Counted from the first letter of the stretch, positions 5,204 to 7,314 are shown. The stretch is DNA of 64,000 nucleotides from Minisyncoccota bacterium (GCA_036266715.1 DATAXS010000004.1:889-64888); one strand, 5' to 3'. The notes: generated by a model from the sequence alone, not told the origin. Numbers and translations are program-made.

Positions 5204-5289
5204 GGAGGGGTCGGATAGTGGTTCATTCCACCGCACTTGAAATGCGGCGCCCCGAAAGGGGCTCGTGAGTTCGAATCTCACCCCCTCCG
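5204..5289 (+). tRNA. tRNA-Ser (anticodon TGA), type II with a long variable arm
   Basis: Acceptor GGAGGGG/CCCCTCC, anticodon loop CTTGAAA, 17-nt variable arm CGCCCCGAAAGGGGCTC, T-arm GTGAG-TTCGAAT-CTCAC. Confidence 0.75.
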
Positions 5290-5375
5290 CGTCAAGGTTG
5301 ACGGAATTGATAAGAGCAAGGTTCTAATTGATTATTCTCGCTACTCAGTGCTATTGTTTGTCCATGATCTATAGG

Positions 5376-5699
5376 ATGAAGCTGGCAACTGAATATTTCG
5401 ACAAAATAGAAGCCGGTACGAAGAGCATCGAGTGTCGCCTTTACGATGAGAAAAGGCAACAGATCAAAATCGGTGATAACATCGAATTCAGTGATGCCCA
5501 GGATGGAAAAAGGAAGGTTATGTCAGAAGTAGTGGCGTTGCACCAGTTCCGCTCTTTTGGAGATTTGTTTAAGAGATTTTCTGTCGTTGCTCTCGGGGGC
5601 AATACAAAGGATGAAGTATTCTCGGCGTTAAGAAAGTTCTATTCCCCCGAAGATGAAGAAAAGTATGGTGTCGTCGGCATAGAAATTAAACTCGTATAA
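5376..5699 (+). CDS. ASCH-domain (PUA-like fold) protein
   Basis: MKLATEYFDKIEAGTKSIECRLYDEKRQ matches the ASCH N-terminal signature. The gene is lower in GC than its neighbours. The track start is 5328 and I prefer the internal ATG. Confidence 0.65.
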   Translation: MKLATEYFDKIEAGTKSIECRLYDEKRQQIKIGDNIEFSDAQDGKRKVMSEVVALHQFRSFGDLFKRFSVVALGGNTKDEVFSALRKFYSPEDEEKYGVVGIEIKLV

Positions 5700-5740
5700 A
5701 AAAGGCGTCCAAGCATAACTGCGCTTGGACGCCCGTTGTT
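5700..5740. terminator. Bidirectional hairpin between two convergent ASCH genes
   Basis: The 11-bp stem ggcgtccaagc/gcttggacgcc is flanked by an A-run and a T-rich stretch. Confidence 0.5.
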
Positions 5741-5748
5741 CGTTTCCG

Positions 5749-7089
5749 CTAAAGAGGATCGATCTCCAGGACTACCATCCCGAGCTTTTCCTTCTCCGAC
5801 GGATAGATTTGCTTCAGAAGTTGAAACGTCTCCTCCTTTGACGAAAGATCGGGGGCGATTTTTTCCCACGGCTCTTTGTCGAGGAGTAGCGCGATAGTCG
5901 GGTAACGGCGGATGGCCTTCACTCGGATATCGAGCGTGCTTTCGTGTGAGACGAATCTAATGCGCTCACCAACCTGGATACGATTGATGTTATCGTATCC
6001 GACCCTTACCTCCAGCGTCTTTTTTCTGGAGCGGGCCAGATTGATGAAGCGGGGCTTGACTCTCATTTCTCTCATAGTCGTAGCTCCTATCTCCAGACTC
6101 CACTGGTACGTAATAACTCCCGGACGGTACGCGGACGGCATTGCTGCGTCCAGTTTCCAACCGAAGCGTTGCAGTGAAACCACCTCGCTTGCAGTCGGGT
6201 TGATGTGGATATACAGCTTCCGTCCATATTGGACGAGTTGATGGGGGAGATCGACGAGTAGCGCATCGAATGCCGCTCGGCCCTTTGCGATAAAAGGCAT
6301 CACCTTAATGGGTTCGCCCTTCTTCGGCGTCATCCCGGCGACGCCGACGATCTCGCCCGTGCCGCTCACCGCGACGTAAATCAGTTTGAACTTTACGTTG
6401 ATGTCGCCGATGTGCCGCCGTGCGTAACCGCCATAAAGCGCCTTGATCCAATTCTCGTCCACGCCACCGAATGATTCCGGCAACGTGGTGAGAAGTAGCT
6501 TGGAGGTCTCGGCTTCGTGTTTCTCTTCGAGCGGTATCACGGAGATATGCACTCTCTCGTAAGCGGCCATTTCTTCCGCCTCGTAAAGAATCTTGTAGAG
6601 CATCGTTTCCACGACACCCGCCTTGTAGTGACTTGCCGAACTACCGGCACGAACGAATCCCTTCCGAAGAAAGAACTGCATTGCTCCGACATTCGATTCT
6701 GCGACCGTGCAATAGAGTTGGCGGGCATTGTGATCTCGTGCGTATTGCTCGGCGTGTTTGAGTAGGACGCTCCCGATACCAAGTTTCCCGCGAAACTCGG
6801 ACGCAAGGATGAGCGGACTGATCTTGTAGGTTTCTTGCCGTTTGCCGACGAGATGAATCATCCCGGCGCGAACGCCATTAACCTCAACGATAAACATCCT
6901 CTGCTCAAACGAGAAAAAACCTACCAAGTCCATTCCTCCGCTCAGATGAGCTTCGAGAATTCGCTTGGCATGAGCGCGATGATCCCCGCCGTAAAACGGT
7001 TCAAGCGCGTCCTGCATGAGGTCTGAGACCCACGCCGAATCGCTTTCAACCGCTTCGCGAATTACCACTTCTGCCTTTTCAGTTGTCAT
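5749..7089 (-). CDS. Fusion protein: tandem GNAT acetyltransferase domains followed by a C-terminal ASCH domain
   Basis: Acetyl-CoA motif R-GKLGIGSVLL in the first GNAT-like unit, a second GNAT-like unit around residues 170-330, and a C-terminal ASCH-like block (VKPRFINLARSRKKTLEVRVGYDNI...LGMVVLEID). Confidence 0.7.
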   Translation of the reverse strand: MTTEKAEVVIREAVESDSAWVSDLMQDALEPFYGGDHRAHAKRILEAHLSGGMDLVGFFSFEQRMFIVEVNGVRAGMIHLVGKRQETYKISPLILASEFRGKLGIGSVLLKHAEQYARDHNARQLYCTVAESNVGAMQFFLRKGFVRAGSSASHYKAGVVETMLYKILYEAEEMAAYERVHISVIPLEEKHEAETSKLLLTTLPESFGGVDENWIKALYGGYARRHIGDINVKFKLIYVAVSGTGEIVGVAGMTPKKGEPIKVMPFIAKGRAAFDALLVDLPHQLVQYGRKLYIHINPTASEVVSLQRFGWKLDAAMPSAYRPGVITYQWSLEIGATTMREMRVKPRFINLARSRKKTLEVRVGYDNINRIQVGERIRFVSHESTLDIRVKAIRRYPTIALLLDKEPWEKIAPDLSSKEETFQLLKQIYPSEKEKLGMVVLEIDPL

Positions 7090-7314
7090 AGACTCTCCTT
7101 TGAAGATAGCTCTGCACCCGTTTGCACGAATGCAGTGAGCAACCCTAAGGGCTGGCTATTCTATATCAAAAATACATCGCTAAGTCAATGATTTTTCGCG
7201 AGAACGAATGAACTCCATGAACCGCGTTACCTCGGCGGGGATTAGGCAGAAATAGTCAGATAGGTTCGAATATCGTCTACAACACCCCGCTTTGTATAGA
7301 CGCGTACTATCCTG

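What the first reader, a model, noticed from the sequence alone, without database searches (positions are those of the whole stretch)
5328..7089. Convergent gene pair: a standalone ASCH protein and a GNAT-GNAT-ASCH fusion, next to the tRNA cluster
ASCH domains are PUA-like RNA or nucleoside-binding modules. The characterised E. coli ASCH protein YqfB is an N4-acetylcytidine amidohydrolase. Fusing two GNAT acetyltransferase units to an ASCH domain (5749-7089) and placing a second, low-GC standalone ASCH gene convergently beside it (5376-5699, sharing a bidirectional hairpin) suggests a writer/eraser or reader pair acting on an N-acylated nucleobase or nucleoside, such as ac4C in RNA or an acylated nucleotide metabolite. 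I do not recognise this exact architecture as a described family.
Basis: partly seen in the sequence, partly recalled or inferred. Interest (0 to 1): 0.55.

Follow-up and report, generated by a model that had tools for sequence, protein, structure and literature searches.

The report
Cytosine acyl-writer fused to its eraser
A tiny symbiotic (CPR) bacterium carries a conserved two-gene module: an acetyltransferase related to an antibiotic-pathway enzyme reported to acylate the amino group of cytosine, fused to, and sitting next to, enzymes of the kind that remove such acyl groups, which makes it a testable candidate for a new cytidine acetylation/deacetylation system.

Summary
Window 5376-5699 (+) encodes a 107-aa ASCH protein. 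Window 5749-7089 (-) encodes a 446-aa protein with three domains: an N-terminal GNAT with an acetyl-CoA loop, a second GNAT fold that lacks that loop, and a C-terminal ASCH domain. The two genes converge on a shared hairpin.

The pair is a conserved module in Patescibacteria (CPR). A second ASCH gene lies beside the fusion in 15 of 17 genome loci and 52 of 58 informative metagenome loci. No other neighbour is conserved, and the adjacent tRNA genes are incidental.

The tandem-GNAT core is 34-43% identical to Streptomyces proteins in cytosine-nucleoside antibiotic clusters. One occupies the amiF position of an amicetin-type cluster. From memory, AmiF links cytosine N4 to an acyl group. In relatives the ASCH domain is replaced by MazG-like or Ham1-like nucleotide pyrophosphatases, or by a different ASCH-like domain. 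Both window ASCH units keep the Lys/Glu/Arg residues needed for N4-acetylcytidine hydrolysis.

My best reading is a writer/eraser set for N4-acylcytosine, more likely on free nucleosides or nucleotides than on RNA. No biochemistry exists. I found no description of this architecture in the searchable literature.

The parts
5376..5699 (+). Standalone ASCH gene (107 aa; possible alternative start ATG 5364 giving 111 aa). It is of the PF0455/PH0355 type and carries the motif G-T-K-S-I-E-C-R.
   Evidence: Pfam ASCH 42.9 bits. PDB 2z0t and 1s04 at E about 1e-14. K16, E19 and R21 are invariant in 22 sequences. A gene of this kind is adjacent to the fusion in most related loci.
5307..5335 (+). Promoter-like site (TTGATA-17-GATTAT) between tRNA-Ser and the ASCH gene. 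Weak evidence only.
   Evidence: Consensus scan. One site was found against 2.5 expected in shuffles, so this is not significant.
5704..5733 (.). GC-rich hairpin between the two convergent stop codons, a likely bidirectional terminator. A T-run follows it on the minus strand.
   Evidence: 11-13 bp stem. dG -23.6 kcal/mol, z -3.9. An equivalent hairpin is present in all 10 related genome loci that have an intergenic gap.
5749..7089 (-). Gene for the 446-aa GNAT / degenerate GNAT / ASCH fusion protein.
   Evidence: ORF. Pfam hits. Identical protein P0001 from a Candidatus Paceibacterota MAG, with more than 860 homologues of about 446 aa. AF2 model at pLDDT 86.8.
6589..7068 (-). GNAT unit 1 (residues 8-167). 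It has the acetyl-CoA loop R100-G-K-L-G104-I-G106 and Tyr155 in the S-H-Y-K motif.
   Evidence: Pfam Acetyltransf_1 57 bits. G104 and G106 are invariant, and Y155 is near-invariant across the family. Fold.
6091..6546 (-). GNAT unit 2 (residues 182-333). It has the GNAT fold but no glycine-rich CoA loop, and it keeps a Lys-rich loop T254-P-K-K-G-x-P-I-K262-x-M-P.
   Evidence: No Pfam hit. GNAT topology in the AF2 model. Tandem-GNAT structures are the top Foldseek hits. Motif conservation.
5752..6069 (-). ASCH domain of the fusion (residues 341-446). Its motif is R-K-K357-T-L-E360-V-R362.
   Evidence: Pfam ASCH 22.6 bits. PDB 1s04 at E 7e-13. Foldseek 2z0t at TM 0.88. K357, E360 and R362 are invariant in 42 sequences.
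7095..7100 (-). Shine-Dalgarno-like AAGGAG, 5 nt upstream of the fusion gene's ATG.
   Evidence: Read directly from the sequence.

Best explanation
The locus encodes a self-contained two-gene module that writes and erases an acyl (probably acetyl) group on the exocyclic N4 amine of a cytosine moiety. The substrate is most likely a free cytosine nucleoside or nucleotide.

In the 446-aa protein, GNAT unit 1 binds acyl-CoA. Together with the degenerate GNAT unit 2, it forms the acceptor pocket and transfers the acyl group to cytosine N4. This is inferred by homology to the AmiF-type tandem GNATs of cytosine-nucleoside antibiotic pathways.

The fused C-terminal ASCH domain and the neighbouring standalone ASCH protein are N4-acylcytidine amidohydrolases that reverse the reaction. 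This is inferred from conserved catalytic residues and from published ASCH biochemistry. The result is one bifunctional enzyme plus one free hydrolase that set the level of N4-acylcytosine.

Shown here: the domain structure, residue conservation, pair conservation, family relationships and genomic contexts.

Inferred: the chemistry, the substrate and the physiological role. The role is possibly handling of acetylated cytidine in a nucleotide-scavenging CPR cell.
For: 1. Architecture and folds are established.

2. The tandem-GNAT core (residues 7-338) is 43% identical (E 2e-87) to Streptomyces P0395 and 34% identical (E 1e-57) to P0402.
- P0402 is the sixth gene of a cluster with this order: ADC lyase, aminotransferase, hexose 2,3-dehydratase, ketoreductase, NTP-transferase, GNAT, GT, MT, nucleoside 2-deoxyribosyltransferase-like, unannotated 403-aa ORF, epimerase, CoA ligase, PABA synthase. 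As I recall the cluster, this is the amiA-amiM order of amicetin. PMC7040171 confirms only that amiA is the ADC lyase, the first gene, and that the cluster is unidirectional.
- P0395 and P0392 are followed by a MazG-like gene, a CMP-hydrolase-family gene, two CGA-synthase-related genes, a radical SAM gene and an aminotransferase gene.

3. Relatives of the core carry other partners in place of ASCH: MazG-like, Ham1/ITPase-like or a different ASCH-like domain. All of these act on nucleotides or nucleosides.

4. Family-wide near-invariant residues are shared by the CPR and Streptomyces members. This argues for the same kind of acceptor.

5. Both ASCH units keep the Lys, Glu and Arg of the GxKxxExR motif. 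Lys and Glu are essential for ac4C hydrolysis in the tested GKER-type ASCH proteins. All 19 tested ASCH proteins removed ac4C.

6. A second ASCH gene is adjacent in 15/17 and 52/58 loci, with no other conserved neighbour.
Against: - No enzyme assay exists for any member of the CPR family.
- The experimental basis for AmiF (gene knockouts that accumulate cytosamine) is recalled from memory. The paper (Zhang et al. 2012, AEM 78:2393) is not in the held library.
- P0402 is an AmiF equivalent by position only. It was not compared with the published AmiF sequence.
- A writer fused to its own eraser looks futile unless it is regulated.
- The CPR loci contain no MazG-like or CMP-hydrolase partners and no biosynthetic cluster, so the acceptor could differ from that of the Streptomyces enzymes.
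- The AF2 inter-domain geometry is unreliable (pTM 0.46), so nothing shows the two active sites cooperating.
- The best NCBIfam GNAT hit is RimI-like (34.8 bits, far below the 86.4 cut-off), so sequence alone does not exclude a protein substrate.
Confidence: 0.45

Rival explanations
1. The chemistry is the same, but the substrate is RNA. The fusion would be an ATP-independent tRNA or rRNA cytidine N4-acetyltransferase unrelated to TmcA/NAT10. Its ASCH domain would dock on or flip out the target cytidine, and the standalone ASCH protein would be the tRNA ac4C eraser.
For: [quoted passage not shown]
- PUA/ASCH domains are commonly fused to RNA-modifying enzymes.
- The fusion is more conserved than neighbouring housekeeping proteins. 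It is 65% identical between the window and L006, against 53% for MraZ. That level of constraint is typical of enzymes acting on conserved macromolecules.
- Many invariant Lys, Arg and His residues are present.
Against: - The Lys-rich loops and the His cluster are shared with Streptomyces relatives that sit in small-molecule pathways, so they are not RNA-specific.
- The alternative fusion partners (MazG-like, Ham1-like) act on free nucleotides.
- The proximity to tRNA genes is not conserved.
- No helicase, THUMP or other RNA-handling domain is present.
Confidence: 0.2
2. The pair is a selfish or defensive cassette of the toxin/antidote type. The GNAT would acylate a cytosine-containing target (the nucleotide pool or a tRNA end) to stop growth or phage replication. 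The ASCH units would be the cis and trans antidotes. This is analogous to the predicted (PIN)-GNAT-EVE + ASCH systems and to the PADLOC candidate PDC-M11.
For: - It is a two-gene module with no other conserved neighbour.
- The closest relative (84% identical, L001) shares no flanking genes with the window.
- The gene composition is offset from the host genome.
- One copy lies beside prophage genes and one lies in an Asgard MAG.
- Distant relatives (P0331 type) carry an ASCH-like domain that hits PDC-M11B at 65 bits.
- GNAT-EVE + ASCH operons have been predicted to be TA or defence systems.
- A GNAT2 + MazG-like + CMP-hydrolase-like triad sits among transposases and integrases in Streptomyces.
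Against: - Sequence conservation is unusually high and uniform (59-65% across many CPR lineages), and the length is constant at about 446 aa. This is unlike fast-evolving, patchy TA or defence genes.
- The window proteins do not match PADLOC models beyond a generic GNAT motif (18.9 bits).
- The family is essentially absent from phage collections.
- No att-like repeats flank the pair.
- Composition still correlates with host GC (r about 0.5-0.6).
- Six of 58 loci lack the second ASCH gene, which would be lethal for a strict toxin.
Confidence: 0.12
3. The fusion is a protein N-acetyltransferase (RimI/RimL-like, for example for a ribosomal protein). Its ASCH domain would merely tether it to RNA or the ribosome, and the neighbouring ASCH gene would have an independent nucleoside-salvage role.
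For: - The best NCBIfam hit is RimI (34.8 bits), and JGI names the protein RimI-like.
- In this window the gene lies 1.3 kb from rplJ-rplL.
Against: - The RimI score is far below its 86.4-bit cut-off.
- The rplJ/rplL proximity is not seen in the other loci.
- This reading does not explain the conserved adjacent ASCH gene, the MazG-like and Ham1-like swaps, or the cytosine-nucleoside cluster relatives.
- The catalytic residues of the fused ASCH domain are invariant, which a simple tether would not require.
Confidence: 0.08
4. The two genes are neighbours by chance and have no functional link.
For: They are convergent and not co-transcribed.
Against: Adjacency holds in 67 of 75 informative loci across very different genomic contexts. 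In nearly all of these the arrangement is the same convergent one, with the shared hairpin present in all 10 genome loci examined for it.
Confidence: 0.02

Closest known systems
AmiF-type tandem GNATs of cytosine-nucleoside antibiotic clusters (amicetin amiF position; Streptomyces proteins P0402, P0395, P0392)
   Same: - The tandem GNAT core is homologous over about 330 residues, at 34-43% identity and E 1e-57 to 2e-87.
- The signature residues are the same.
- Unit 1 carries the CoA loop in both.
- Both are associated with enzymes that act on cytosine nucleotides or nucleosides.
   Different: - The Streptomyces proteins are fused to, or followed by, a MazG-like domain and a CMP-hydrolase-family gene, and they sit in biosynthetic clusters.
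- The CPR protein is instead fused to ASCH, is paired with a second ASCH gene and has no cluster around it.
- The function of AmiF is known to me only from memory of Zhang et al. 2012.
ASCH N4-acylcytidine amidohydrolases (E. coli YqfB; T. thermophilus TthASCH; Pyrococcus and Archaeoglobus ASCH proteins; human EOLA1 and TRIP4-ASCH)
   Same: - Both have the PUA-like barrel.
- Both have the GxKxxExR octapeptide of the Glu-containing (GKER) type, with the Lys and Glu needed for catalysis.
- The closest structures are the Pyrococcus proteins PH0355, PF0455 and PF0469.
   Different: - None of the characterised ASCH proteins is fused to a GNAT.
- The exact Pyrococcus homologues matched here were solved by structural genomics and carry no assigned function.
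- The activity of the CPR proteins is untested.
(PIN)-GNAT-EVE + ASCH operons (Iyer et al. 2013; Bell et al. 2020, PMC7641849) and PADLOC candidate system PDC-M11
   Same: A GNAT carries a C-terminal PUA-superfamily domain and is accompanied by a separate ASCH protein. These systems were predicted to acetylate a base or to target modified nucleic acid.
   Different: - Here the fused domain is ASCH, not EVE.
- The GNAT is a tandem of the AmiF type.
- There is no PIN domain, AAA_17 ATPase or restriction-modification neighbourhood.
- The PADLOC models are not matched beyond the CoA motif.
- The distribution is CPR-wide rather than in proteobacterial prophages or restriction-modification islands.
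TmcA / NAT10 / TmcAL (known ac4C writers)
   Same: The proposed product is the same (N4-acetylcytidine), and a GNAT catalytic domain is used in TmcA and NAT10.
   Different: The fusion has no helicase/ATPase or tRNA-binding domain, and there is no sequence relationship beyond the GNAT fold. TmcAL is not a GNAT.
Bifunctional opposing-activity enzymes with free small hydrolases (Rel/SpoT plus small alarmone hydrolases). This is an analogy only.
   Same: A synthetase and a hydrolase for the same group sit in one polypeptide, and a standalone hydrolase is encoded elsewhere.
   Different: There is no homology. The comparison is purely organisational and comes from general knowledge.

Membership tests
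GNAT superfamily (Pfam clan, PF00583) | GNAT fold (beta1-alpha1-alpha2-beta2-4-alpha3-beta5-alpha4-beta6/7) | tested here: met
   Both units show this topology in the AF2 model. GNAT and tandem-GNAT structures are the top Foldseek hits. Unit 1 matches PF00583 at 57 bits.
GNAT superfamily (Pfam clan, PF00583) | Acyl-CoA pyrophosphate-binding loop Q/R-x-x-G-x-G/A after beta4 | tested here: met
   Unit 1 has R100-G-K-L-G104-I-G106, one residue longer than the canonical loop, with G104 and G106 invariant. Unit 2 lacks any conserved glycine loop (consensus IATNxVAFEALL). The feature is therefore met for unit 1 only.
ASCH domain (PF04266) | Profile match above the curated cut-off and a PUA-like beta-barrel | tested here: met
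   The standalone protein scores 42.9 bits and the fusion C-terminus 22.6 bits, against a cut-off of 21.2. PDB hits 2z0t and 1s04 are at E 1e-13 to 1e-15. The fold matches 2z0t at TM 0.88 and rmsd 1.7 A.
ASCH N4-acylcytidine amidohydrolases (YqfB/TthASCH type) | GxKxxE/TxR octapeptide with catalytic Lys and Glu/Thr | tested here: met
   The standalone protein has G-T-K16-S-I-E19-C-R21. The fusion has R-K-K357-T-L-E360-V-R362. K, E and R are invariant in both families.
ASCH N4-acylcytidine amidohydrolases (YqfB/TthASCH type) | Measured hydrolysis of ac4C or N4-acylcytosine | not testable with these tools
   This needs an enzyme assay.
AmiF-type tandem GNAT (cytosine N4-acyltransferase of nucleoside-antibiotic clusters) | Full-length homology of the tandem core to cluster-encoded members | tested here: met
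   34% identity over 332 aa (E 1e-57) to P0402 and 43% over 331 aa (E 2e-87) to P0395. Near-invariant residues are shared.
AmiF-type tandem GNAT (cytosine N4-acyltransferase of nucleoside-antibiotic clusters) | Location in a cytosine-nucleoside biosynthetic cluster with MazG-like and CMP-hydrolase genes | tested here: not met
   The CPR loci have no such neighbours. The window protein is therefore a relative of this family, not a biosynthetic-cluster member.
AmiF-type tandem GNAT (cytosine N4-acyltransferase of nucleoside-antibiotic clusters) | Identity of P0402 with the published AmiF, and the published N4-acylation role | not testable with these tools
   The AmiF sequence and the paper (PMC3302616) are not held. 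Equivalence rests on gene order, on PMC7040171 for amiA only, and on my memory for the rest.
(PIN)-GNAT-EVE + ASCH system | EVE domain fused C-terminally to the GNAT | tested here: not met
   The C-terminal domain is ASCH, and there is no EVE hit.
(PIN)-GNAT-EVE + ASCH system | Separate ASCH gene in the same locus | tested here: met
   An adjacent ASCH gene is present in 67 of 75 informative loci. It is convergent rather than operonic.
PADLOC PDC-M11 candidate defence system | Matches to both the PDC-M11A and PDC-M11B profiles | tested here: not met
   The fusion scores 18.9 bits on the CoA-motif region only, and the standalone ASCH protein has no hit.
TmcA/NAT10 RNA cytidine acetyltransferases | Helicase/ATPase domain plus GNAT plus tRNA-binding domain | tested here: not met
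   No such domains appear in the Pfam or NCBIfam scans.
RimI (TIGR01575) | Score at or above the curated cut-off of 86.4 bits | tested here: not met
   The score is 34.8 bits.
GNAT toxin-antitoxin (TacT/AtaT type) | Single-domain GNAT of about 170 aa with an upstream RHH/DUF1778 antitoxin in one operon | tested here: not met
   The protein has three domains and 446 aa, there is no RHH or DUF1778 gene, and the partner gene is convergent.

The most novel reading that the evidence does not exclude
The tandem-GNAT/ASCH fusion would be the founding member of a third family of cytidine N4-acetyltransferases, ATP-independent and unrelated to TmcA/NAT10 and TmcAL. It would be physically coupled to its eraser.

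In that reading it works like a Rel/SpoT-style synthetase-hydrolase that sets the level of N4-acetylcytidine, either in RNA or as a free nucleotide that reports acetyl-CoA status. The neighbouring ASCH protein would act as the free hydrolase. The system would be conserved across the Patescibacteria.
Probability: 0.2. Interest if true: 0.85.

Novelty: new variant of a known kind. Interest (0 to 1): 0.62.

Why it matters
Cytidine N4-acetylation is an active topic. Only the TmcA/NAT10 and TmcAL writers are known, and ASCH proteins were proposed as erasers only in 2020-2026.

A protein that fuses a putative cytosine N4-acyltransferase to an ASCH amidohydrolase, and that almost always has a second ASCH gene beside it, is genetic evidence that N4-acylcytosines are the natural ASCH substrates. 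It is also a concrete, easily expressed candidate for a new writer.

The finding links an antibiotic-pathway enzyme family (AmiF type) to a module that is more conserved than neighbouring housekeeping genes in the poorly understood, nucleotide-scavenging CPR bacteria.

If the protein proves active, it would be a compact ATP-independent tool for installing and removing N4-acyl groups on cytidine.

Tried and rejected
- **Mobile-element boundaries.** No att-like direct repeat of the tRNA-Ser 3' end and no terminal inverted repeats flank the pair.
- **tRNA linkage.** This was tested and rejected. Only 4 of 44 metagenome pairs have a tRNA within 500 nt, against a background of 0.05 tRNA per kb. The figure is 5 of 18 in the window plus genome/viral loci L001-L018.
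- **Phage origin.** Only one IMG/VR contig carries the gene, beside RecT, SSB, YopX and VRR-NUC genes and with no ASCH partner. In GenBank phages only the ASCH part matches, in three Streptomyces phage records.
- **Defence-system membership.** The PADLOC hits are generic.
- **RimI, PseH, streptothricin acetyltransferase and similar families.** All are far below their cut-offs.
- **Literature on AmiF.** The paper is not held under its DOI or PMC id, and searches for AmiF, cytosamine and amide-bond terms gave nothing usable. The AmiF function is therefore cited from memory.
- **Iyer et al. 2013.** This paper is not held and is cited through Bell et al. 2020.
- **Pyrococcus kukulkanii ASCH proteins.** The sequences tested in the 2026 preprint are not in its supplement. 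I could not tell which of them corresponds to the PF0455 or PF0469 types.
- **Profile search with variant relatives.** It returned only 13 proteins because of the candidate cap.
- **Inter-domain geometry.** The AF2 arrangement (pTM 0.46) was not used for any conclusion.
Full report
**What is in the sequence**

The window comes from a Candidatus Paceibacterota (CPR/Patescibacteria) MAG. The 446-aa protein is identical to database entry P0001 on a 65,001-bp contig.

ORF A is at 5376-5699 (+) and encodes 107 aa. An upstream ATG at 5364 is also possible.
- It is a clear ASCH protein, with Pfam PF04266 at 42.9 bits.
- Its closest solved relatives are the Pyrococcus structural-genomics proteins PH0355 and PF0455, at E about 1e-14.

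ORF B is at 5749-7089 (-) and encodes 446 aa.
- It has a good Shine-Dalgarno site (AAGGAG, 7095-7100).
- Residues 58-145 match GNAT profiles. Residues 344-444 match ASCH just above the Pfam cut-off, and more convincingly match PF0455 at E 7e-13.
- The middle third has no profile hit.
- An AlphaFold model built on 42 homologues (pLDDT 86.8, pTM 0.46) shows two complete GNAT topologies (residues 8-167 and 182-333) and a PUA-like barrel (341-446).
- Foldseek returns tandem-GNAT structures first (2wpw/2wpx, 3tt2, VipF, histidine acetyltransferase). It also returns PH0355 at TM 0.88.

The two stop codons are 49 nt apart and share a stable hairpin at 5704-5733. The one qualification is that only GNAT unit 1 has an acetyl-CoA loop (R100-G-K-L-G104-I-G106). 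Unit 2 has none.

**The pair is a conserved module**

The fusion has more than 860 homologues of almost constant length (about 446 aa). They are 59-65% identical across lineages named Wildermuthbacteria, Jacksonbacteria, Andersenbacteria, Moraniibacteria, Doudnabacteria and Minisyncoccia. Berkelbacteria and Saccharibacteria members are 49-55% identical.

- In 17 loci from species-representative genomes, an ASCH gene of the standalone type lies next to the fusion in 14. Twelve of these are convergent and sit directly after the fusion's stop. Two are upstream on the same strand. A further locus (L013) has a co-directional ASCH gene downstream.
- In 74 metagenome loci, 58 are informative and 52 of those have the second ASCH gene. 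Forty-eight are convergent, one is upstream and three are downstream and co-directional.
- No other neighbouring gene is conserved.
- A hairpin sits between the convergent stops in all ten genome loci that have a gap. In six loci the two stop codons overlap by 4 nt.
- The tRNA genes next to the pair in this window are not a conserved feature.

**What the tandem GNAT is related to**

A search of 1.84 billion cluster representatives showed that residues 6-334 form a unit that also occurs in other arrangements:
- on its own;
- with a C-terminal MazG-like domain (P0259, P0276, P0292, P0298);
- with an N-terminal Ham1/ITPase-like domain (P0354, and probably P0390, whose extension aligns by eye but has no Pfam hit);
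- with a different ASCH-like domain carrying a G-x-K-x-F-E-L-R-K motif, at either end (P0331, P0337, P0339, P0375, P0335). The one tested, P0331, matches the PADLOC candidate PDC-M11B at 65 bits.

A profile search found named members in Streptomyces, and I then looked at their genomic contexts.

P0402 (tandem GNAT plus MazG-like) is the sixth gene of a unidirectional cluster. The order is ADC lyase, aminotransferase, hexose 2,3-dehydratase, ketoreductase, NTP-transferase, GNAT, glycosyltransferase, methyltransferase, nucleoside 2-deoxyribosyltransferase-like, an unannotated 403-aa ORF, epimerase, CoA ligase, PABA synthase. As I recall the cluster, this is the amiA-to-amiM order of amicetin. 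PMC7040171 confirms only that amiA is the ADC lyase, the first gene, and that the cluster is unidirectional.

P0395 and P0392 are followed by a 125-aa MazG-like gene and a CMP-hydrolase-family gene. After those come two cytosylglucuronate-synthase-related genes, a radical SAM gene and an aminotransferase gene. This is the core of a blasticidin/gougerotin-type cytosine-nucleoside cluster.

The window protein is 34% identical to P0402 (E 1e-57) and 43% identical to P0395 (E 2e-87) over about 330 residues. The near-invariant residues of the family are shared by all branches: Y33, D54, G57, K83, K89, P92, G104, G106, R123, Y126, T128, Y155, E161, K256, G258, K262, P265, Y293 and Y321.

From memory, the abstract of Zhang et al. 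2012 (AEM 78:2393) reports that knocking out amiF or the CoA-ligase gene amiL makes the producer accumulate cytosamine. AmiF was therefore assigned as the amide synthase that joins cytosine N4 to the PABA acyl group. That paper is not in the held library, so this key point is recalled, not verified here.

**What the ASCH units are likely to do**

YqfB is an N4-acylcytidine amidohydrolase (PMC6972931). [quoted passage not shown] Many of them also hydrolyse the free nucleoside. In the Glu-type (GKER) proteins, the Lys and Glu of the GxKxxExR octapeptide are essential.

- The standalone protein has G-T-K16-S-I-E19-C-R21.
- The fusion has R-K-K357-T-L-E360-V-R362.
- K, E and R are invariant in both families.
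- The two ASCH units are only 23% identical to each other. By eye they resemble two different Pyrococcus paralogues, PF0455 for the standalone protein and PF0469 for the fused domain. They are therefore not recent duplicates.

**Most likely mechanism**

The tandem GNAT probably transfers an acyl group from acyl-CoA to the N4 amine of a cytosine moiety. The fused ASCH domain and the free ASCH protein probably hydrolyse that amide.

I favour a free nucleoside or nucleotide as substrate (confidence about 0.45 for this full reading), for two reasons:
- The alternative fusion partners (MazG-like and Ham1-like pyrophosphatases) and the partners in clusters (CMP-hydrolase family) all act on free nucleotides.
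- The positively charged signature loops are shared with the small-molecule enzymes of Streptomyces.

An RNA substrate remains a serious rival (0.2). ASCH proteins work on tRNA, and the fusion is more conserved than neighbouring housekeeping proteins (65% against 53% for MraZ between the window and L006).

A toxin/antidote or defence role is possible (0.12). The module is self-contained, its context varies even between close relatives, and GNAT + PUA-like + ASCH sets have been predicted to be conflict systems. Against this, the uniform high conservation, the absence from phage collections and the lack of PADLOC matches argue otherwise.

A RimI-like protein acetyltransferase role is weakly supported (0.08). 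Chance adjacency is excluded.

A fused writer and eraser looks futile. However, it has organisational precedents such as Rel/SpoT, and it would suit homeostatic control. This is inference only.

**Unexplained feature**

The two genes keep opposite compositional offsets.
- In this window the ASCH gene has 42.6% GC (GC3 48%), against 53.4% (GC3 63%) for the fusion gene.
- In 44 non-redundant metagenome pairs, the fusion's GC3 exceeds the ASCH gene's in all 44 (mean difference 0.17).
- Of the 33 pairs with enough flanking sequence, the ASCH gene is below the flanking GC in 32 (mean -8.7 points). The fusion is above it in 24 (mean +3.7 points).
- Both still correlate with host GC.
- In the genome loci, the fusion often has the highest GC3 of its locus.

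This could reflect expression tuning or cassette transfer. I could not decide between the two.

**Comparison with what is known, and novelty**

The domains are known, and the proteins are in databases under generic names ('GNAT family N-acetyltransferase', 'ASC-1-like protein/RimI-like enzyme').

I found no description of a GNAT-GNAT-ASCH protein, of its pairing with a second ASCH gene, or of any ASCH system in Patescibacteria.

The closest described organisation is the predicted (PIN)-GNAT-EVE + ASCH operon. It differs in the fused domain, the GNAT type, the accessory genes and the distribution.

I rate this a new variant of a known kind. Interest is about 0.6, because it offers a directly testable candidate for a new cytidine N4-acyl writer coupled to its eraser.

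Noticed in passing
window 5376-5699 vs 5749-7089; loci L001-L017 and L026-L099: The two genes have opposite composition offsets across the family. The standalone ASCH gene is GC- and GC3-poor: it is below flanking GC in 32/33 pairs, and its GC3 falls as low as 0.09 in L002. The fusion gene is GC3-rich and often has the highest GC3 in its locus. Fusion GC3 exceeds ASCH GC3 in 44/44 pairs. The cause is unknown.
   Followed up: partly
L023 8001-10163 (Streptomyces sp. 2231.1): A three-gene set (tandem GNAT of this family, a 125-aa MazG-like gene and a nucleoside 2-deoxyribosyltransferase-like gene) stands alone among IS21/Tn3 transposases, integrases and a relaxase-like gene. It lies outside any biosynthetic cluster and may be a mobile cytosine-nucleotide-processing or depletion cassette.
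   Followed up: partly
proteins P0259, P0276, P0292, P0298, P0354, P0390, P0331, P0337, P0339, P0375, P0335: Relatives of the tandem-GNAT core carry MazG-like, Ham1/ITPase-like or a distinct ASCH-like ('GxKxFELRK') domain instead of the PF0455-type ASCH. For P0390 the Ham1-like assignment is by eye only (no Pfam hit). The ASCH-like domain of P0331, the one tested, matches the PADLOC candidate defence component PDC-M11B at 65 bits.
   Followed up: partly
window 14921-14994 and 15957-16030: ARAGORN calls two 74-nt tRNAs as tRNA-Ser (anticodons CGA and UGA). They are too short to have the long variable arm expected of bacterial tRNA-Ser, and they have the lowest Rfam tRNA scores in the window (45.9 and 38.6 bits). 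A normal 87-nt tRNA-Ser(UGA) is at 5204-5290.
   Followed up: no
L013 5971-7645 (contig of a Promethearchaeota MAG): A CPR-type fusion gene (53% identical) is followed by a co-directional 107-aa ASCH gene on a 267-kb contig binned as an Asgard archaeon. This is either horizontal transfer or a mis-binned contig.
   Followed up: no
L018 3-998 and 2735-8591 (IMG/VR contig): A fusion-gene fragment (47% identical) at the contig end lies beside prophage-type genes (PDDEXK nuclease, RecT, SSB, YopX, VRR-NUC). No ASCH partner is present.
   Followed up: partly
L010, L014, L056, L068, L087, L094: In these loci the convergent fusion and ASCH genes overlap by 4 nt at their stop codons, so there is no intergenic hairpin. 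Elsewhere a 27-74 nt gap separates the two genes, and it carries a strong hairpin in every gap I folded.
   Followed up: partly
L016 1275-2225 and 3371-3781; L011, L073, L086, L091: There are natural split or broken versions of the gene. In L016 the tandem GNAT and the fusion-type ASCH domain are separate genes 1.1 kb apart. Several other loci have frameshifted or truncated fusion genes.
   Followed up: no
window 9815-13998 vs L006 8412-12993: The mraZ/dcw cluster lies a few kb from the pair both in the window and in L006 (MraZ 53% identical), but in inverted orientation. By contrast L001, whose fusion is 84% identical to the window's, shares no flanking genes with the window.
   Followed up: partly
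window 5364-5375: An in-frame ATG 12 nt upstream of the annotated ASCH start would add MIYR. This matches the 111-aa homologues that begin MIYKM or MVYQM.
   Followed up: partly
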